Notes: generated from the sequence alone by a model not told the origin. Shown: positions 2,867 to 32,386, numbered from the stretch's first letter. The stretch is DNA of 64,000 nucleotides from a virus (IMGVR_UViG_3300005805_000076:7929-71928); one strand, 5' to 3'. Numbers and translations are program-made.

Positions 2867-3790
2867 GTGAAAGAACTTTGGACTGAAAAATTTCGACCAA
2901 AAACTGTGAATGAATATGTATTCACAGATATCAATGCAAGAGATCAAATTGAAGCTTTTATTAATGAAGGTGCGATTCCCCATCTTCTATTTCATGGGCC
3001 AGCAGGTACTGGCAAAACAACTCTAGCTAAAATTTTGGTCAATGAACTTAAAATTGATGAATATGACTTTTTGCAGGTTAACGCCAGTAGGGATAATGGT
3101 GTTGATTATCTTAGACAAAAAATTGAAGGATTTGTAAGCACATTGCCTTTTGGACATTTAAAGATTGTGCTGTTGGATGAAGCAGACTATCTCAGTCCTC
3201 CAGCACAGGGCATATTGCGTGGTTTAATGGAAACATATCAATCACAAGCAAGGTTTATTCTAACCTGTAATTTTGTACACAAAATCATTACTCCATTGCG
3301 TTCACGTTGTCAAGAACTACATATTGACAAGACTGATGTCACAGAATTTACAGCTAGAGTAGCCAAAATTCTATTAGACGAAGGTGTGCAATTTGATTTA
3401 GATATATTAGATAGTTATGTAAAAGCAACATATCCAGATCTACGTAAATGTCTCAATATTTTACAACCAAACAGCGCCAGTGGAGTATTGCAGACAGTGA
3501 AAGAAAGCAGCGGAAGTAGTACAGATTATAGATTCGCCGTTGTTGATTTACTGAAACAAAGACGTATTAAAGAAGCTAGACAATTGCTATGCAGTCAAGC
3601 TAGGCCTGAAGAAATGGATGAGATTTTCCGTTGGGCGTATAACAATTTAGATCTTTGGAGTAGTACAGATCAAGGGCAGGATCAAGCAATTATGATTATT
3701 CGAAAGTCCATTGTAAATCATGCTATGATGTCAGAACCTGAAATTAACTTATCAGCCATGTTGGTTGAATTAACTGGGATAGACAAATGA
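2867..3790 (+). CDS. clamp loader AAA+ subunit (RFC small subunit / T4 gp44-like)
   Basis: WTEKFRPK, GPAGTGKT, NAS, LLDEAD, LRSRC (SRC) motifs. Confidence 0.92.
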   Translation: MKELWTEKFRPKTVNEYVFTDINARDQIEAFINEGAIPHLLFHGPAGTGKTTLAKILVNELKIDEYDFLQVNASRDNGVDYLRQKIEGFVSTLPFGHLKIVLLDEADYLSPPAQGILRGLMETYQSQARFILTCNFVHKIITPLRSRCQELHIDKTDVTEFTARVAKILLDEGVQFDLDILDSYVKATYPDLRKCLNILQPNSASGVLQTVKESSGSSTDYRFAVVDLLKQRRIKEARQLLCSQARPEEMDEIFRWAYNNLDLWSSTDQGQDQAIMIIRKSIVNHAMMSEPEINLSAMLVELTGIDK

Positions 3791-4185
3791 AAAACAAAGA
3801 TATACATGTATTAGGTTACTATAAGGCAGCACCTAAGAATCCTCGCTTAACCACTAAACCAGGATATATGAAAGACCCTGACAATATATCTTGGGTAGAA
3901 TCCATAAATATTACCAGAGGGTTAAAGGATAAGGATTTAACAAAAGCTCAAGTAATTTTGAACTTAAATACAAAAACGGTGGTAAGAAATGTTTGGAATG
4001 AAAATCGTGATTTTCCAACTCTGTTAGCTTATTATCAAGAAAATTATGCCAAATATATCAATCCAATCATTGCCACTCTTTACAAGGACGAATTAAATGA
4101 AACCACTGGGAATGTACGGGTTGAAGAAGAAAAAGAAAGCAGTGGATCCCAACGCACCACCGAGACCAACCCTATTGGGTCATGA
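3787..4185 (+). CDS. hypothetical protein
   Basis: 132-aa ORF, ATGA overlap with upstream gene. Confidence 0.65.
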   Translation: MKNKDIHVLGYYKAAPKNPRLTTKPGYMKDPDNISWVESINITRGLKDKDLTKAQVILNLNTKTVVRNVWNENRDFPTLLAYYQENYAKYINPIIATLYKDELNETTGNVRVEEEKESSGSQRTTETNPIGS

Positions 4186-4345
4186 GAAAGAAATGAAAGT
4201 TTGGCGCGGACAATTTGGAAAGTTTGCGCAAGATAATATTAGTCTAAACATAACCGTGCGTATGCTAGAGCGTAAAGTTAACCGCCTCGAAGGTCAACTC
4301 GAGGCGGCTATCAGTGTTATCAATAGATTAAATCGTAATAGATAA
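4097..4345 (+). CDS. hypothetical coiled-coil protein
   Basis: 82-aa ORF, AAGGA RBS upstream. Confidence 0.55.
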   Translation: MKPLGMYGLKKKKKAVDPNAPPRPTLLGHEKEMKVWRGQFGKFAQDNISLNITVRMLERKVNRLEGQLEAAISVINRLNRNR

Positions 4346-4346
4346 C

Positions 4347-5078
4347 TTAAACTTCACCGTACAGACTTAGTACTTCCTGTACAATTGGGTGCCTTTGTAT
4401 ATCCTTACCGGTCAGATGGGCATGACCAATTCTATTAGATTGTGCTGTTTTAATTCTTTCTATGAAGTCTAATAAACCATTATTAGTTCTAAAGGCCTTG
4501 TCGGTTTGATTTAAATCTCCTGTAACTATAAGTCTAGAATTTTCTGCAATGCGGGTTAACACCATCTTCATTTGATTAACCGTAGCATTTTGCATTTCGT
4601 CGCAGATTATAAATGCATTTTTTAAGTTTCTTCCACGCATAAAGGCCAGTGGGCTGATTTCAATAATTTCCTCCTCCAGCATTTTTGCCACTTCCCTTTT
4701 ATCATAGTATTCTAAGATAACATCAAACAATGGTTTAGTCCATGGTTCCATTTTTTGATTTAATGTACCAGGCAAAAATCCATGTTTTTCATCATCCACA
4801 CCCACAGCAGGTCTAGTAAGAATTATCTTGTTTACAGAACCTTGGCGCAGTGATTGAATACCTGCCAGCATGGCCAGCATGGTTTTGCCAGTGCCCGCCG
4901 GCCCTGTGGCAAATACTATTACTTTACTGGGATCTGTTAAGAAATTTATATAGTTTTCTTGATTTAGACTTTTGGGAATTAAATGAATTTGTCTTTTTTT
5001 GTTGTAAAACGTGTTTAAACTTACTACATTTGAATCTACTACTTGTTGCTGTAAAAACCTATTCTTTCTTTTTGACAA
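4347..5078 (-). CDS. phoH: PhoH family ATPase
   Basis: GPAGTGKT, TRPAV, GFLPG, PLAFMRGR, DEMQN, TGDLNQTD; TTG start after AGGAGG. Confidence 0.95.
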   Translation of the reverse strand: MSKRKNRFLQQQVVDSNVVSLNTFYNKKRQIHLIPKSLNQENYINFLTDPSKVIVFATGPAGTGKTMLAMLAGIQSLRQGSVNKIILTRPAVGVDDEKHGFLPGTLNQKMEPWTKPLFDVILEYYDKREVAKMLEEEIIEISPLAFMRGRNLKNAFIICDEMQNATVNQMKMVLTRIAENSRLIVTGDLNQTDKAFRTNNGLLDFIERIKTAQSNRIGHAHLTGKDIQRHPIVQEVLSLYGEV

Positions 5079-27234: not shown

Positions 27235-27495
27235 ATGTCAAACCGTACGTTTACATCTGAACAAAAAGCCAAATTGACTCAACTTTTCAATGAAGGCACT
27301 AAAGTATTGCGTGAAGTTGAAGACCTCAATGCCGGGCTCAGCGATACCGTCAAAGCCATTGCAGAGGAACTGGAAATTAAACCAGGTATTTTGAAAAAAG
27401 CAATCAAGATTGCACATAAAGCCAACCTTGGTGAAGAAAACAAAAATCACGACGAATTGAATACCATTCTTGCCACGGTTGGGCGGACTCTATAA
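27235..27495 (+). CDS. T4 DsbA/GapR-like dsDNA-binding protein
   Basis: 86-aa helical protein, KAIAEELEIKPGILKKAIKIAHK. Confidence 0.55.
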   Translation: MSNRTFTSEQKAKLTQLFNEGTKVLREVEDLNAGLSDTVKAIAEELEIKPGILKKAIKIAHKANLGEENKNHDELNTILATVGRTL

Positions 27496-29652
27496 ATGAG
27501 TTATGTGGATGCATTGTTGGATCGTCAACGTGATAGAATTCACGTTGTGGAAAGAATTAATGGGCAGAGAGTCTATCAAGAGTTTGCTGCTGATTATATC
27601 TTTTATTATGACGATCCCAAAGGCAAACATCGCACAATTTATGGGACTCCGGTATCTAGATTTTCCACACACAGCAGTAAAGAATTCCAAAAAGAAATCC
27701 GCATGCATGGTAAAAAACGCCTTTGGGAAAGTGACTTTAAACCAGTATTCCGTTGTCTAGCAGAGAATTACTTGGGCAAAGAACCTCCCAAACTTCATGT
27801 GGCATTTTTCGATATTGAGGTTGACTTTGATCCGGTGCGTGGGTTTAGTAGGCCTGAAGATCCATTTAACCCCATTAATGCTATTAGTGTTTATTTGGAT
27901 TGGTTGGATAAGCTTATAACACTGGCTATACCACCCAAGTCAATGAGCTGGGATACAGCACAGGAGATTGCTAATAAGTTTCCTGACTGCTATATCTTTG
28001 AGCGTGAAGAAGACCTATTAGATACATTCCTTAATCTAATAGATGATGCGGATATATTAAGTGGTTGGAACTCAGAAGGTTATGATATCCCCTATACCAT
28101 TGGTAGAATCACTAGGGTACTTAGCAAGGATGATACACGCAGATTATGTCTGTGGGATCAGTTTCCTAAACAAAGAGAATTTGAAAGGTTTGGTGCAAGT
28201 CAATTAACATTTGACCTAATTGGTAGAGTACATATGGACTATATGCAACTCTATCGCAAATATAACTATGAGGAACGACATAGTTATAGTTTGGATGCTA
28301 TCGGTGAATATGAAGAATGTGGCAGTAAAGTAGCCTATGAAGGCACGTTGGATCAGCTCTACAACAAAGACTTTGAAAAGTTCATAGACTATAATAGACA
28401 GGATACAAGACTGCTGGCTAAGATTGATAAGAAACTACGTTTTATTGATCTAGCTAACACCATCGCTCACGATAACACAGTGTTATTGCCGACCGTTATG
28501 GGAGCAGTCGCAACCACGGAGCAAGCGATTATAAATGAAGCACACAGTCAAGGATTGGTCGTTCCTAACCGCAAAGGCAGAGAAGAGGATGGAGATTCTA
28601 CCCAAGCAGCAGGTGCCTATGTTGCTTATCCCAAAAAAGGTATGCATGACTGGATTGGGGCTATCGACATCAACAGCCTATACCCCAGTGCCATTAGAGC
28701 ACTTAATATGGGACCAGAAACAATCATAGGACAATTACGTCCTATTATGACAGAAAAATATATTTCTGATAAAATAGCCCAAGGATCTAGTTTTGCAGGT
28801 GCGTGGGAAGGACTTTTTGGTAGTTTGGAATATGAAGCAGTGATGCGAGGTGATGCAGGCACTGAAATTACTATTGACTGGGAGGTTGATGGTTCCAGCG
28901 ATGTACTCAGTGCTGCTGATGTCTGGCGTTTGATATTTGATAGCAATAAACCCTGGACATTGAGCGCTAATGGCACTATCTTTACCTATGAACGCAAAGG
29001 TATTGTTCCAGGACTACTAGAACGTTGGTATTCCGAACGTAAGGAAATGCAAAAAAAACTGAAGGAGTCTGAAAATCCTGAGGATCAATCATATTGGGAT
29101 AAACGTCAATTGGTTAAGAAGATTAATCTTAACAGTCTCTATGGCGCTATTCTTAATCCTGGTTGCAGATTCTTTGATAATCGCATTGGACAATCAACAA
29201 CTTTGACTGGCAGAACTATTGCGAAACATATGGATGCATTCGTAAATGAATGTATCACAGGCAAATATGATCACGTTGGTGATGCTATCATATACGGTGA
29301 CAGTGTAACGGGAGACACGTTAATTAAAACTGACTCTGGAGAAATTACCATAGAAACGCTATTTAATCAATGCTTAGACCATTCAATAAATGGAGAGAGA
29401 GAATATGGTACTCAATCATTTGCGAAGGTAATTGGTTTTAACGCATTTGAAGATTCGCCAGTTATGAGTGAAATTTCGTATGTTATGCGACACAAAACCA
29501 AAAAGAAAATATATGAAATTGAACTAGAAAATAACAAGAAAGTCAAAGTAACCGAAGATCACAGTATTATGGTTGATAGAGACGGATTCCTAATAGAGGT
29601 TAAACCAACAGACTTACTAGATACAGACTTAATTATTTGCTTAAACGTATAA
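27496..29652 (+). CDS. family B DNA polymerase N-terminal half fused to split intein N-part
   Basis: FFDIEV, GWNSEGYD, YNRQD exonuclease motifs; DINSLYPS; KKINLNSLYG; YGD then intein. Confidence 0.93.
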   Translation: MSYVDALLDRQRDRIHVVERINGQRVYQEFAADYIFYYDDPKGKHRTIYGTPVSRFSTHSSKEFQKEIRMHGKKRLWESDFKPVFRCLAENYLGKEPPKLHVAFFDIEVDFDPVRGFSRPEDPFNPINAISVYLDWLDKLITLAIPPKSMSWDTAQEIANKFPDCYIFEREEDLLDTFLNLIDDADILSGWNSEGYDIPYTIGRITRVLSKDDTRRLCLWDQFPKQREFERFGASQLTFDLIGRVHMDYMQLYRKYNYEERHSYSLDAIGEYEECGSKVAYEGTLDQLYNKDFEKFIDYNRQDTRLLAKIDKKLRFIDLANTIAHDNTVLLPTVMGAVATTEQAIINEAHSQGLVVPNRKGREEDGDSTQAAGAYVAYPKKGMHDWIGAIDINSLYPSAIRALNMGPETIIGQLRPIMTEKYISDKIAQGSSFAGAWEGLFGSLEYEAVMRGDAGTEITIDWEVDGSSDVLSAADVWRLIFDSNKPWTLSANGTIFTYERKGIVPGLLERWYSERKEMQKKLKESENPEDQSYWDKRQLVKKINLNSLYGAILNPGCRFFDNRIGQSTTLTGRTIAKHMDAFVNECITGKYDHVGDAIIYGDSVTGDTLIKTDSGEITIETLFNQCLDHSINGEREYGTQSFAKVIGFNAFEDSPVMSEISYVMRHKTKKKIYEIELENNKKVKVTEDHSIMVDRDGFLIEVKPTDLLDTDLIICLNV
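29302..29649 (+). mobile_element. split intein N-fragment (116 aa)
   Basis: SVTGDTLI block A; VKVTEDHSIMV block B (TxxH); ends at a stop. Confidence 0.88.
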
Positions 29653-29681
29653 ATATTATATGGTGACAGGAGTATCAGCAT

Positions 29682-30632
29682 ATGATAAAATGTTTAGAAT
29701 GTGGATTTGAAACACATAGGTTACAGTGGACTCATTTTAAATTTAATTGCACCGGGAAATTTTCAAATGGAAAAGAGTATCGAAAAGCCTATCCTAATGC
29801 AAAATTAGTTTCAGATGAGCTAGCTAAAGAGACTGCGGTTACATTAGCAAATTTTATTAAGAAGTATGGAGAAATTGAAGGGAACGATCGGTGGGGGAAA
29901 TACAGAGGCAAGCAAGCATATTCCAATTCATACGAATATAAAAAAGAAAAATTAGGTTGGACTAAGGAACAATATGATAGCTATAATCAATCAAGATCGC
30001 AAACTCTCGAAAAGATGGTAAAAAGGCACGGTGAAGAAGAAGGAGTACGACGTTGGCAGGTATATTGCAATAGGCAAGCATTTACAAATACAAAAGCATA
30101 TTTTATTAACAAATACGGCATTGAAAAAGGGACTGCTAAATATCTCGACGTTAACAAAAGAAAGGCAGTAGGAAATCCTGTATATTTGGCTGAAAAATTA
30201 TCAATAACTGTAGATCAAGCGACTGATATAATTCTATCTAGATATAAAAACAGATATACTAGCAATTTAGAAAAGGAATTTGTGTCACTACTTGAAGAAC
30301 AAATTGGAACTTTGGACCACACTAGTAATAGAAACCCATTTGGCAAATGGAGTCATTATCTAAACACTTATGTTGTTTATGATATAAAACATAACGATTT
30401 TATTATTGAGTTCAACGGTGATTATTGGCACGCTAATCCAAAAATCTACAAAGATGATACGTATATTCGAGGAACTATGGCTATTGATATTCAACAACGA
30501 GATATGTTAAAATTAAAAACTGTTAAAGACTTAGGATTTAGAGTTTTAACCGTTTGGGAGTCTGACTTTAAGTCAAATAAAATAGGAACTATAAAGGACG
30601 TTATACAGTGGATACAATCCGAACAAAAGTAA
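29682..30632 (+). mobile_element. Vsr-like endonuclease gene between the split-intein halves
   Basis: IIEFNGDYWHANP..RD..K...LGFRVLTVWESD; N-terminal CLEC; TATAAATA at 29648 and AGGAG RBS. Confidence 0.8.
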
Positions 30633-30733
30633 AATCAATTAAATGTCTTGGAGAAGTTAATGATTATGTTTATGATATAAGCATAGATAAACAGGATCCA
30701 TTCTTTTTTGCAAATGACATATTAGTTCACAAC
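30608..30733 (+). mobile_element. split intein C-fragment (42 aa)
   Basis: block F YVYDI, block G HN, Thr+1. Confidence 0.9.
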
Positions 30734-31594
30734 ACAGACTCTGTTTATTTTACTGCTTGGCCTTTGATAAAACAGGATGTTGAATCAGGCAAAATGGAGT
30801 GGAACAAGGATGTTGCGGTGCAGGTCTATGATGACATAGCTGAACAAGTTAACAATAGTTTTCCAGCATTTATGGAAAAAGCTTGTCATTGCCCAAGACA
30901 AAACGGTGCCATTATCCGTGGTGGTCGAGAATTGGTAGCTAGCAAAGGTATCTTTATTACTAAAAAACGCTATGCTGTTCTAATCTATGACAAAGAAGGT
31001 AAACGTCTAGATACTAAAGGCAGCAAAGGTAAAATGAAGGCCATGGGGTTGGATTTGAAACGTAGTGATACCCCAAAAGTAGTACAGGACTTTTTGTCTG
31101 AGATTCTGCATGATGTTTTGACTGGTGTTGCTAAAGAAGAAATCATTGACAAAGTTCGTGAATTTAAAATTGCATTCCAAAAACGTCCAGCATGGGAAAA
31201 AGGTACTCCCAAACGTGTAAATAATCTCACACGCTATAGTGATGAAGAAAAACGTTTGGGTAAGGCCAATATGCCTGGGCATGTTCGTGCAGCTATGAAC
31301 TGGAATAATCTTAAACGTATGCATAGCGACAATTACAGTATGTCAATTGTTGATGGTATGAAAACCATTGTATGCAAACTAAAAGATAATCCCCTAGGAT
31401 ATAGTAGTGTGGGCTATCCAGTTGATGAAAGTCATATCCCGCAGTGGTTTAAGGAACTGCCATTTGATGACGACAAAATGGAAACAACCATTGTTGATCA
31501 AAAGGTAGAAAACCTTTTAGGTGTATTGGAATGGCGTATAGCTGAAAGCACTGATATTAAAACTACATTTGACTCGCTGTTTAGCTTTGATTAA
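30608..31594 (+). CDS. split intein C-part fused to the PolB C-terminal half (GTG start)
   Basis: VYDISI..FFANDILVHN then TDSVYF; KKRYA; MGLDLKRSD. Confidence 0.93.
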   Translation: MDTIRTKVKSIKCLGEVNDYVYDISIDKQDPFFFANDILVHNTDSVYFTAWPLIKQDVESGKMEWNKDVAVQVYDDIAEQVNNSFPAFMEKACHCPRQNGAIIRGGRELVASKGIFITKKRYAVLIYDKEGKRLDTKGSKGKMKAMGLDLKRSDTPKVVQDFLSEILHDVLTGVAKEEIIDKVREFKIAFQKRPAWEKGTPKRVNNLTRYSDEEKRLGKANMPGHVRAAMNWNNLKRMHSDNYSMSIVDGMKTIVCKLKDNPLGYSSVGYPVDESHIPQWFKELPFDDDKMETTIVDQKVENLLGVLEWRIAESTDIKTTFDSLFSFD

Positions 31595-31657: not shown

Positions 31658-32386
31658 ATGAAAGATTATCTATTAGATATTGTTACCCATACTCAAAGTT
31701 TAGGTATGGATTTGGTCAAAATTACTGGCAACGATAAAGAAACTTTATTGGATGCTATCGCTGAAGACCGCAGCGTGATTGTACAAGCAAAGTTTACAGG
31801 TATTGTGCCTGAATTTATTGGTACGTTTGGCATGCCAAATTTGGGCAAGCTCAACACTATTCTTAATATTCCAGAATATCAAGAAGATGCAGATATCACT
31901 ATCATTAAGCAGGATCGCAATGGTGAATCAGTGCCTGTAGGCATACACTTTGAAAACAAAAGCGGTGACTTTAAAAATGACTATCGCTTTATGAGTTCTG
32001 AAATTGTTAATGACAAACTTAAAACAGTTAAGTTCAAAGGTGTAAAGTGGAACATTGATATTGTTCCTTCTGTGGCCAGTATCCAAAAACTTAAATTTCA
32101 ACAAAGCGCAAACAGTGAAGAAACTAAGTTTGTAGCTAAAACTGAAAATGGCGACCTTAAGTTTTACTTTGGCGATCACAGCAGCCACGCAGGTAACTTT
32201 GTGTTCGAAAGCAAGGTCAGTGGAAAACTTAGCAAAGCTTGGGCATGGCCCGTTGATGCAGTTATTAGTATTCTTGGTCTTGTTGGTGATAAAACACTGA
32301 AGATTTCAGATGAAGGTGCTGCAATGATAACCGTAGACAGTGGAATTGCACAGTATAACTATATCCTGCCAGCACAAACAAAATAA
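31658..32386 (+). CDS. probable sliding clamp (gp45/PCNA-like)
   Basis: 242 aa, beta-rich two-domain pattern, follows polB, YNYILPA C-terminus; clamp loader in the same window. Confidence 0.55.
   Translation: MKDYLLDIVTHTQSLGMDLVKITGNDKETLLDAIAEDRSVIVQAKFTGIVPEFIGTFGMPNLGKLNTILNIPEYQEDADITIIKQDRNGESVPVGIHFENKSGDFKNDYRFMSSEIVNDKLKTVKFKGVKWNIDIVPSVASIQKLKFQQSANSEETKFVAKTENGDLKFYFGDHSSHAGNFVFESKVSGKLSKAWAWPVDAVISILGLVGDKTLKISDEGAAMITVDSGIAQYNYILPAQTK

What the first reader, a model, noticed from the sequence alone, without database searches (positions are those of the whole stretch)
27496..31594. Family B DNA polymerase fractured at its catalytic YGD|TDS motif by a naturally split intein, with an endonuclease gene between the halves
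Seen: the first ORF runs ...IIYGD into SVTGDTLI...VKVTEDHS...ICLNV* (116-aa IntN, 29302-29649). A separate Vsr-like endonuclease gene (EFNGDYWH) follows with its own TATAAATA and AGGAG. A GTG-started ORF then gives a 42-aa IntC ending HN, followed by TDSVYF. Joining the exteins restores YGDTDS, so active polymerase needs protein trans-splicing. Known: phage 'fractured genes' with split inteins flanking Vsr-like endonucleases, and the YGD/TDS intein site of archaeal PolB. Inference: a split PolB with a Ser1/Thr+1 nucleophile pair is unusual and could be an orthogonal trans-splicing tool.
Basis: partly seen in the sequence, partly recalled or inferred. Interest (0 to 1): 0.88.

Follow-up and report, generated by a model that had tools for sequence, protein, structure and literature searches.

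The report
Split-intein fractured phage DNA polymerase
An uncultured giant phage encodes its DNA polymerase as two genes cut inside the catalytic YGD|TDS motif, each carrying half of a self-splicing intein with a selfish nuclease gene between them; the call is correct, but the layout is already described and relatives are already used as protein-ligation tools.

Summary
PolB-N (27496-29301) runs into a 116-aa IntN that starts with Ser1 (29302-29649) and then stops. A 316-aa Vsr-like endonuclease gene follows (29682-30632). A GTG-started 42-aa IntC ends in HN and is followed by TDSVYF (extein from 30734).

Of the 80 closest viral-contig relatives, 76 read straight through the junction (YGDTDS in the 8 read), which fixes the insertion point. 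One has a contiguous 163-aa mini-intein there. Others have the same fractured layout. At least 53 distinct protein clusters carry the same 42-aa IntC ending (H/K)N|TDS.

The intein's best solved relative is the Aes123 PolB1 split intein (PDB 9HTH, E 6e-14). That intein is a characterised trans-splicing element with a VSR endonuclease gene between its halves, and it is the parent of the CL and CLm tools. The endonuclease C-domain folds like Vsr and I-Bth0305I (Z 11.8 and 10.7). A start-codon-masking hairpin, TATAAATA, and a 25-nt overlap with the IntC gene match the 2009 "fractured genes" description.

What differs: the site lies two codons upstream of Aes123, CP21, LCGC14 and PA5oct (DTD|S), so +1 is Thr rather than Ser. 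Ser1/Thr+1 in a split PolB intein is already known from Nanoarchaeum equitans.

This is a new member of a known kind. The scan has found this allele before on other DNA.

The parts
27496..29301 (+). PolB N-extein, 602 aa. It carries the exonuclease motifs (FFDIEV, SGWNSEGYDIPY, YNRQDT), motif A (DINSLYPS), motif B (KKINLNSLYG) and the first half of motif C (IIYGD).
   Evidence: PF03104 at 1.4e-18, PF00136 at 9.5e-28; 50% identity to the PA5oct polymerase; the extein ends exactly where intein-less relatives continue with TDS.
29302..29652 (+). N-terminal intein half (IntN), 116 aa plus the TAA stop. Features: Ser1 (SVTGDTLI, block A), the NX-motif histidine (YVMRH), block B (VTEDHS), and an end at ...DLIICLNV at the canonical endonuclease-insertion/split loop.
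   Evidence: PDB 9HTH (Aes123 PolB1 intein) E 5.8e-14, and PI-PkoII E 2.4e-6. PF14890; alignment with KP13-7, SCTP-2, PA5oct and Aes123; pN 0.16-0.30 against saturated pS.
29648..29655 (+). TATAAATA, a T4-type late-promoter-like octamer. It overlaps the PolB-N stop codon and abuts the hairpin.
   Evidence: ATAAATA is kept in L087, L089 and L091; L007 has CTAAATA. The same element is described in fractured genes (PMC2677866). It is not statistically enriched in the window.
29654..29687 (+). RNA hairpin. Its 3' arm pairs with the endonuclease start codon (29682-29684). The Shine-Dalgarno AGGAG (29668-29672) sits in the loop. An outer stem extends the structure to 29641-29697.
   Evidence: -14.7 kcal/mol, z -4.3, 0 of 200 shuffles as stable; consensus structure in 5 loci, with 3 pairs kept through changes on both sides.
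29682..30632 (+). Free-standing Vsr-like (EDxHD-type) homing endonuclease, 316 aa. It has an N-terminal Cys/His cluster, helical repeats, and a C-terminal nuclease domain (residues 191-316) with IIEFNGDYWH.
   Evidence: 37% identity to the 'putative VSR endonuclease' of Aeromonas phages. PF18741 in 5 of 5 relatives, Vsr in 1 of 5. AF2 pLDDT 89.7; 1CW0 Z 11.8, 3R3P Z 10.7, 1VSR Z 10.5; more than 650 homologues. D234, E243 and H250 invariant, D274 nearly so.
30593..30598 (+). AAAGGA ribosome-binding site, 9 nt before the GTG of the IntC gene and inside the 3' end of the endonuclease gene.
   Evidence: sequence read directly.
30608..30733 (+). C-terminal intein half (IntC), 42 aa, starting at GTG and overlapping the endonuclease gene by 25 nt. 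Block F is YVYDIS. Block G is NDILVHN with the terminal Asn.
   Evidence: same start position with ATG or GTG in L007, L017, L087, L089 and L091; 52 of 53 clusters have a 42-aa IntC, with 51 HN|TDS and 2 KN|TDS.
30734..31594 (+). PolB C-extein, 286 aa plus stop. It starts with Thr+1 (TDSVYF, the second half of motif C) and includes the KKRYA motif and the thumb.
   Evidence: PF00136; phrog_262 positions 577-852; 65-81% identity to C-terminal parts of relatives.

Best explanation
This is a fractured replicative DNA polymerase gene of an uncultured jumbo phage. The record is an IMG/VR contig of 71.9 kb, estimated to be about 21% complete.

A class 1, cysteine-independent intein sits between Asp and Thr of the catalytic YGD|TDS motif. 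A free-standing Vsr-like homing endonuclease cassette is inserted in the intein's endonuclease loop, so the intein is encoded as two halves on two polypeptides.

The inferred mechanism is as follows.
1. The 718-aa N-precursor and the 328-aa C-precursor are translated separately.
2. IntN (116 aa) and IntC (42 aa) associate and fold into a HINT domain.
3. Ser1 makes an N-O acyl shift.
4. Thr+1 attacks the resulting ester.
5. The terminal Asn cyclises.
6. An 888-aa polymerase with an intact YGDTDS motif is released.

The cassette brings its own control elements. A hairpin masks the endonuclease start codon on read-through (early) transcripts. A late-promoter-like TATAAATA would start transcripts inside the hairpin. 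The 3' end of the cassette supplies the ribosome-binding site and start codon of the IntC gene.

Shown here: the anatomy, the homology to a proven trans-splicing intein, the fold of the endonuclease, purifying selection, and recurrence in many phages. Inferred, not tested here: splicing itself, endonuclease cleavage, and the timing of expression.
For: - **Anatomy and motifs:**
- **Exact insertion point:** in 76 of the 80 closest loci the two extein matches abut with no gap; the 8 intein-less junctions read out all give (I/V)YGD|TDS.
- **Homology to the Aes123 PolB1 intein:** that intein trans-splices in vitro (PMC11923092). PDB 9HTH scores E 5.8e-14 for IntN. It scores 8.8e-18 over the full length for L008, the contiguous mini-intein at the same site, which is 80% identical to the window's intein.
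- **Catalytic positions kept:** Ser1, the NX-motif His, TxxH, the terminal (H/K)N and Thr+1 are kept in the window, L007, L008, L017, L087, L089, L091, KP13-7 and SCTP-2. The junction is kept in 53 of 53 IntC-bearing clusters.
- **Purifying selection:** pN is 0.15-0.30 with pS saturated at 0.69-0.87 in the intein halves and the endonuclease, the same as in the exteins.
- **Persistence without the endonuclease:** L017 keeps the split intein although its endonuclease gene is 5'-truncated.
- **Endonuclease fold:** 1CW0 Z 11.8, 3R3P Z 10.7.
- **Control elements:** the hairpin and the 25-nt overlap match the published features of fractured genes (PMC2677866).
- **Only copy seen:** this is the only PolB in the record.
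Against: - No experiment exists for this allele.
- All characterised mesophilic phage PolB split inteins use Ser+1 at DTD|S, not Thr+1 at D|TDS.
- Naturally split inteins often splice poorly in vitro; wild-type Aes123 reaches about 30% (PMC11923092).
- TATAAATA is not enriched in the window, and no transcription data are available.
- The record is a fragment, so a second polymerase elsewhere in the genome cannot be excluded.
- The intein and endonuclease are as diverged as the exteins, so this copy gives no sign of recent homing.
Confidence: 0.88

Rival explanations
1. The intein halves no longer splice. They act only as a non-covalent docking module that holds two polymerase subunits together, as in fragmented phage enzymes assembled by interaction domains.
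For: Split phage enzymes that work without splicing exist: Aeh1 NrdA (PMC3045599) and gp43A/gp43B in Aeromonas phages. L087 also splits PolB-N into two ORFs with no intein. Two clusters and SCTP-2 have KN instead of HN at the intein's end.
Against: The break lies between the two catalytic aspartates of motif C. Without excision, 158 intein residues would stay inside the active site. Every nucleophile and helper residue is conserved across relatives 58-80% identical and in cultured phages. The closest solved relative splices (PMC11923092).
Confidence: 0.07
2. The composite element is now a fixed, vertically inherited resident. Its endonuclease no longer homes, and is either inactive or kept for another role such as excluding co-infecting relatives.
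For: Intein and endonuclease divergence between the window and L007, L089 and L091 equals that of the exteins. The nearest endonuclease relative is only 68% identical. L017 carries a truncated copy.
Against: Intein-bearing loci are not one clade on the extein tree; at least 2 gains or losses are needed, and the window's nearest neighbours include intein-less L067 and L040-L043. The endonuclease is under purifying selection with its catalytic columns invariant. This rival concerns mobility only, not the trans-splicing reading.
Confidence: 0.3
3. The stop codon and the intervening gene are an assembly or sequencing artefact, or the polymerase gene is a decaying pseudogene.
For: The source is a metagenomic contig and no read data are available here.
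Against: The same three-gene layout, with the same 116-aa and 42-aa intein halves, occurs on many independent contigs from different samples and in cultured phage KP13-7. The three ORFs are in three different frames. All segments are under purifying selection.
Confidence: 0.01

Closest known systems
Aes123 PolB1 split intein locus of T4-like Aeromonas salmonicida phages (GenBank JN377899; PDB 9HTH; parent of the CL and CLm inteins; PMC11923092, PMC13014065)
   Same: The host is a phage family B polymerase, and the break is in motif C. IntN (120 aa) ends one ORF and IntC (39 aa) starts the next. A homologous VSR-type endonuclease gene (37% identity) lies between them and overlaps the IntC gene. 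Ser1, the NX histidine, block B and the HN terminus are shared. It is the best PDB hit.
   Different: Its insertion point is DTD|S with Ser+1, two codons downstream of the window's D|TDS with Thr+1. Identity is only 35% (IntN) and 45% (IntC). The Aes123 polymerase is additionally split into gp43A and gp43B. The window's intein has three non-catalytic cysteines.
Fractured genes (Dassa, London, Stoddard, Schueler-Furman, Pietrokovski 2009, PMC2677866)
   Same: Every defining feature is present: a split intein, a free-standing Vsr-like endonuclease, a hairpin with TATAAATA upstream of the endonuclease ORF, and overlap of the endonuclease 3' end with the downstream gene's start. The setting is phage or metagenomic.
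   Different: No family B polymerase locus turned up in my term search of that paper, which names hosts such as gp41, DnaE, NrdA, NrdJ, IMPDH, terminase and DNA ligase; I did not read its locus list in full.
Split PolB intein of Pseudomonas jumbo phages MIJ3 / PA5oct (PMC6892783)
   Same: These are the closest cultured polymerases (50% identity). They have a split intein in motif C of a jumbo-phage PolB, and the intein is homologous (44-46% identity).
   Different: The site is DTD|S with Ser+1. The intervening gene is a 560-aa endonuclease, which PMC6892783 describes as HNH-family and the PA5oct record labels 'Hef-like'. IntC is annotated with a long N-terminal extension.
[quoted passage not shown]
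   Same: The insertion point (YGD|TDS) and the Ser1/Thr+1 pair are the same. KP13-7 also has a homologous Vsr-like endonuclease between the halves. SCTP-2 has the contiguous form.
   Different: Identity is only 32-48%. The KP13-7 genes are annotated as hypothetical proteins, and no paper on them turned up in my searches. SCTP-2 ends in KN rather than HN.
Neq Pol split intein of Nanoarchaeum equitans (Choi et al. 2006; Gordo et al. 2018, cited in PMC11766414 and PMC10189870)
   Same: It is a naturally split intein in a family B polymerase that uses Ser1 and Thr+1.
   Different: It is archaeal and thermophilic (needs 50-70 C or more). Its halves are encoded at unlinked loci with no endonuclease gene. 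The halves are 98 and 30 aa. I did not compare its sequence here.

Membership tests
Fractured gene (split intein + free-standing homing endonuclease; Dassa et al. 2009) | A conserved enzyme gene is broken in two, with IntN at the end of the upstream ORF and IntC at the start of the downstream ORF. | tested here: met
   The extein boundaries are fixed by intein-less relatives.
Fractured gene (split intein + free-standing homing endonuclease; Dassa et al. 2009) | A free-standing endonuclease gene lies between the halves, in its own frame with its own start. | tested here: met
   ORF 29682-30632, in a different frame from both polymerase ORFs, with AGGAG 9 nt before the ATG.
Fractured gene (split intein + free-standing homing endonuclease; Dassa et al. 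2009) | A hairpin, often with TATAAATA, lies upstream of the endonuclease ORF, and the endonuclease 3' end overlaps the downstream gene's start. | tested here: met
   Hairpin z -4.3, conserved in 5 loci. TATAAATA at 29648-29655. A 25-nt overlap. The published description was read.
Class 1 intein (HINT domain) | Nucleophile at position 1, block B TxxH, a terminal Asn preceded by His, and a nucleophile at +1. | tested here: met
   Ser1, VTEDH, VHN and Thr+1. PF14890 hits both halves. Full-length homology of the L008 cis form to 9HTH, E 8.8e-18.
Class 1 intein (HINT domain) | NX-motif histidine preceded by Arg or Lys, the signature of Ser1 (cysteine-independent) inteins (PMC10189870). | tested here: met
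   YVMRH in the window. R/K-H is kept in all 8 aligned inteins.
Class 1 intein (HINT domain) | Protein (trans-)splicing activity. | not testable with these tools
   This needs co-expression or in vitro mixing of the two precursors.
PolB1-type allele (Aes123, CP21; same site also in LCGC14, PA5oct/MIJ3) | Insertion between DTD and S of motif C, with Ser+1. | tested here: not met
   The window, L007, L008, L017, L087, L089, L091, KP13-7 and SCTP-2 are inserted at YGD|TDS with Thr+1. Aes123 and PA5oct are at DTD|S. CP21 and LCGC14 constructs carry a DTD N-extein, with SAY as the LCGC14 C-extein. The intein is homologous, but it is not the same allele.
Vsr-like / EDxHD homing endonuclease family (I-Bth0305I prototype, PMC3239194) | C-terminal nuclease domain with the Vsr fold. 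| tested here: met
   AF2 model pLDDT 89.7. Residues 191-316 align to 1CW0 (Z 11.8, rmsd 2.8, 112 residues), 3R3P (Z 10.7, 96 of 97 residues) and 1VSR (Z 10.5). The next unrelated nucleases score Z 7.2 or less. These are also the top four Foldseek rows.
Vsr-like / EDxHD homing endonuclease family (I-Bth0305I prototype, PMC3239194) | Conserved acidic and histidine catalytic residues (composite EDxHD motif). | tested here: met
   D234, E243 and H250 are invariant and D274 is at least 90% conserved in 38 homologues. E243, H250 and D274 are invariant across Aes123, KP13-7 and L017 relatives. Residue-to-residue equivalence with I-Bth0305I is inferred from motif order, not from a superposition that I inspected.
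Vsr-like / EDxHD homing endonuclease family (I-Bth0305I prototype, PMC3239194) | N-terminal modular DNA-binding region (NUMOD-type repeats). | tested here: inconclusive
   The model shows helical repeats at residues 55-190. There are three sequence repeats of the type YG..EG..W..Y...QA.(S/T)N. A NUMOD3 Pfam hit appears in only one of five relatives, at E 0.012.
Vsr-like / EDxHD homing endonuclease family (I-Bth0305I prototype, PMC3239194) | Site-specific double-strand cleavage of the cassette-free allele. | not testable with these tools
   This needs a cleavage assay on L008-type and L067-type targets.

The most novel reading that the evidence does not exclude
The D|TDS, Ser1/Thr+1 allele is an uncharacterised mesophilic lineage of naturally split, cysteine-independent PolB inteins. 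It is abundant in uncultured jumbo phages. It is homologous to the Aes123/CLm and LCGC14 tool inteins but sits two codons away from them. It could therefore prove active at ambient temperature and orthogonal to those tools. Within one phage clade it also preserves every stage of the proposed gene-breaking pathway: intein-less, contiguous mini-intein, fractured with an intact endonuclease, and fractured with a decayed endonuclease.
Probability: 0.4. Interest if true: 0.4.

Novelty: new member of a known kind. Interest (0 to 1): 0.25.

Why it matters
The biology is not new. Fractured genes, phage PolB split inteins and Vsr-like homing endonucleases are all described, and close relatives are commercial-grade protein-ligation tools.

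This locus adds two modest things.

1. It is a well-populated, mesophilic Ser1/Thr+1 allele. [quoted passage not shown] A Thr+1 member with different extein context could be tested as an orthogonal partner.
2. It offers a natural series within one phage clade: intein-less alleles, a contiguous mini-intein, fractured alleles and an endonuclease-decayed allele. This illustrates the gene-breaking model of Dassa et al. with real intermediates.

Tried and rejected
- **Megablast against phage records:** the whole locus found nothing. Only protein-level searches found relatives.
- **phmmer of the endonuclease against PDB:** no hit.
- **Five-sequence profile against PDB:** Vsr came up only at E 1.6-2.1, which is not significant. 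The family assignment therefore rests on the predicted fold and on Pfam hits among relatives.
- **Foldseek alone:** E-values were above 0.001, because the nuclease domain is one third of the model. VIA-align resolved this.
- **dN/dS:** it could not be computed properly because synonymous sites are saturated. Only pN against pS is quoted.
- **Recent homing:** I looked for signs of it, such as an intein more similar than the exteins, and found none for this copy.
- **Single origin of intein-bearing loci:** I considered and rejected it on the extein tree. That is a FastTree run with 3 labelled rows, so the evidence is weak.
- **Late-promoter reading:** it could not be supported statistically.
- **Literature:** searches found no paper on the KP13-7-type or freshwater D|TDS split allele. 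The library is incomplete, so this absence is not proof.


Full report

Yes. The ORF list and the raw sequence show three consecutive plus-strand ORFs in three different frames.

- ORF 27496-29652 encodes 718 aa. It reads ...AIIYGD, continues with SVTGDTLI...YVMRH...VKVTEDHS...DLIICLNV, and stops at TAA 29650-29652.
- ORF 29682-30632 encodes 316 aa with IIEFNGDYWH. It is preceded by TATAAATA (29648-29655) and AGGAG (29668-29672).
- ORF 30608-31594 starts at GTG. Its first 42 residues end in ANDILVHN, and it continues with TDSVYF.

Pfam sees the exonuclease and polymerase domains of family B polymerases plus Intein_splicing in the first ORF. It sees Intein_splicing plus DNA_pol_B in the third.

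**2. Where exactly is the insertion, and is it an artefact?**

The window is part of a 71.9-kb IMG/VR virus record estimated to be 21% complete, so it comes from a jumbo phage. It holds no other PolB.

A scan of viral contigs with the C half found 309 relatives, of which the best 80 were kept. I mapped the five segments of the locus onto those 80.

- In 76 loci the N-extein match ends on the base before the C-extein match begins; the 8 junctions I read out all give (I/V)YGD|TDS(V/C)YF. This fixes the insertion point between Asp and Thr of motif C.
- L007 has the same three-gene layout, with the endonuclease 68% identical.
- L008 has one 1029-aa polymerase with a contiguous 163-aa mini-intein at the same point.
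- L017 has the split intein with only the last ~77 codons of the endonuclease gene left.

Three endonuclease homologues at 58-64% identity were picked from the large protein collection. All three lie in the same layout on contigs of 80-352 kb, with IntN 116 aa, IntC 42 aa and HN|TDS.

Among the best 120 protein clusters matching the C half, 53 are split C halves. Of those, 52 have a 42-aa IntC, 51 end in HN|TDS and 2 in KN|TDS.

The cultured Klebsiella jumbo phage KP13-7 has the same site, the same nucleophiles and a homologous endonuclease, all annotated as hypothetical proteins. A mis-assembly or pseudogene is therefore excluded for practical purposes.

**3. What are the parts?**

*The intein.*
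- The best solved relative of IntN is the Aes123 PolB1 intein (9HTH, E 5.8e-14). Archaeal Ser1 inteins follow, including PI-PkoII of the Thermococcus polymerase.
- The contiguous L008 form is 80% identical to the window's two halves. It aligns to 9HTH over its whole length (E 8.8e-18).
- The alignment of eight inteins shows block A (SV.GDT), the NX-motif R/K-H, block B (VT.DHS), block F (YVYDI) and block G (N[DN]IL.HN). The NX motif was recently described as specific to cysteine-independent inteins (PMC10189870).
- The endonuclease cassette sits exactly in the loop where L008 has the short linker, which is the canonical split and endonuclease position.
- The intein has three cysteines, at IntN positions 24 and 113 and IntC position 13. 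None is at a catalytic position.

*The endonuclease.*
- Sequence searches alone are weak.
- All five aligned relatives hit the PD-(D/E)xK family PF18741, and one hits Vsr.
- The nearest annotated phage genes are the 'putative VSR endonuclease' genes of Aeromonas phages.
- An AlphaFold2 model built from 38 homologues has mean pLDDT 89.7.
[quoted passage not shown] These stand clearly above other restriction-fold nucleases.
- D234, E243 and H250 are invariant, and D274 is nearly so.
- The N-terminal two thirds are a Cys/His cluster followed by helical repeats, presumably for DNA binding. I could not assign them to NUMOD families with confidence.

*Control elements.*
- The 61 nt around the endonuclease start fold into a hairpin (-14.7 kcal/mol, z -4.3, none of 200 shuffles as stable).
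- The hairpin pairs the ATG and leaves the Shine-Dalgarno sequence in the loop.
- The same structure is predicted for five loci, with three pairs kept through double changes.
- TATAAATA abuts the 5' arm.
- The endonuclease gene overlaps the IntC gene by 25 nt, and an AAAGGA lies 9 nt before the GTG. The start position is the same, as ATG or GTG, in L007, L017, L087, L089 and L091.
- These are the features Dassa et al. listed for fractured genes. They interpreted them, by analogy with phage Aeh1 and T4, as translational masking on early transcripts and late-promoter-driven expression.
- The octamer is not enriched in the window, so this part is inference.

**4. How it most likely works.**

The two precursors are made separately. 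The intein halves associate, and the Ser1 / Thr+1 / terminal Asn chemistry ligates the exteins. The product is an 888-aa polymerase with an intact YGDTDS.

Four points support this.
1. The element is homologous to an intein that does exactly this in vitro (PMC11923092).
2. Every catalytic position is conserved across diverged relatives.
3. Non-synonymous divergence of IntN, IntC and the endonuclease is as low as that of the polymerase itself, while synonymous sites are saturated.
4. An unexcised 158-residue insert between the two catalytic aspartates is hard to reconcile with activity.

L017 shows that the split state persists after the endonuclease decays, so the halves must function in trans there.

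On mobility, intein-bearing loci are not one clade on an extein tree (at least two changes). However, this copy shows no sign of recent transfer.

**5. Comparison with what is known.**

- The arrangement is the 'fractured gene' of Dassa et al. 2009 (PMC2677866) in every feature.
- The closest characterised system is the Aes123 PolB1 locus (JN377899). Its intein was shown to trans-splice, was crystallised (9HTH) and was engineered into the CL and CLm tools (PMC11923092, PMC13014065).
- CP21, LCGC14 and GOM-OPS-1 are further characterised phage PolB split inteins (PMC12707363).
- A split PolB intein in the related jumbo phages MIJ3 / PA5oct was published in 2019 (PMC6892783).

The window differs from all of these in its insertion point. 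Aes123 and PA5oct read DTD|S...HN|S. The CP21 construct carries the N-extein DTD, the LCGC14 constructs carry DTD and SAY, and the paper states Ser at +1 for all three newer inteins. The window, its metagenomic relatives, KP13-7 and SCTP-2 instead read YGD|S...(H/K)N|TDS.

The inteins are clearly homologous (35-46% identity). So one intein lineage occupies two sites two codons apart, using Ser or Thr as the +1 nucleophile.

A naturally split PolB intein with Ser1/Thr+1 is itself not new. Neq Pol of N. equitans has that pair (PMC11766414, PMC10189870), but it is thermophilic and has no linked endonuclease.

**6. Verdict.**

- This is a new member of a known kind and of modest interest.

The scan has already found and followed up the same allele on other DNA (e1-5380869, e1-5380886, e1-5390373; e1-5935758, e1-5322901). 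I reached the same closest-known assignment before reading those notes.

Noticed in passing
L017:1208-5987: A relative's PolB is broken three ways. A free-standing 326-aa Vsr-like endonuclease (2867-3847) separates two pieces with no intein. A group I intron (RF00028, 82 bits, 4014-4233) interrupts motif B between NS and LYG. The YGD|TDS split intein keeps only the last ~77 codons of its endonuclease gene (about 4792-5022), with stops and no start upstream.
   Followed up: partly
L008:4121-4609: A contiguous 163-aa mini-intein sits at the same YGD|TDS site in a 1029-aa PolB. It is 80% identical to the window's two halves. A short linker (CHSKGDKIDVE) occupies the place where the endonuclease cassette sits in the window. 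This is either the pre-invasion state or a re-fused one.
   Followed up: partly
L001, L004 versus window, L002, L003 (motif C junctions): Homologous inteins occupy two insertion points two codons apart in motif C. One is YGD|TDS with Thr+1 (window, KP13-7, SCTP-2). The other is DTD|S with Ser+1 (Aes123, PA5oct). I found no discussion of this offset in the papers read.
   Followed up: partly
L002:4004-8767 (Klebsiella phage KP13-7, OP617745; also LC768491): A cultured jumbo phage has the same fractured PolB: IntN 124 aa, a 325-aa Vsr-like endonuclease, and HN|TDS. All three genes are annotated as hypothetical proteins. The C-half ORF is annotated with an ~80-aa extension upstream of IntC.
   Followed up: no
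L087:1110-3451: In another fractured relative the N half is further divided into 547-aa and 233-aa ORFs that overlap by 4 nt with no insert. This resembles the gp43A/gp43B split of Aeromonas phages.
   Followed up: no
L003:4001-7270 and two protein clusters: The intein ends in KN instead of HN (penultimate His replaced by Lys) in SCTP-2 and in 2 of 53 IntC-bearing clusters.
   Followed up: no
window 29302-29649 and 30608-30733: Two non-catalytic cysteines flank the split site, in IICL at the end of IntN and in (K/E)CLGE near the start of IntC. The IntC one is present in about 90% or more of 52 clusters. Aes123 has hydrophobic residues at those positions.
   Followed up: no
window 27235-27495 and 31658-32386: The polymerase is flanked upstream by an 86-aa gene with a weak Phage_DsbA match (E 0.005). 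Downstream lies a 242-aa gene with no Pfam hit that is conserved next to PolB in relatives (L007, L008, L087).
   Followed up: no
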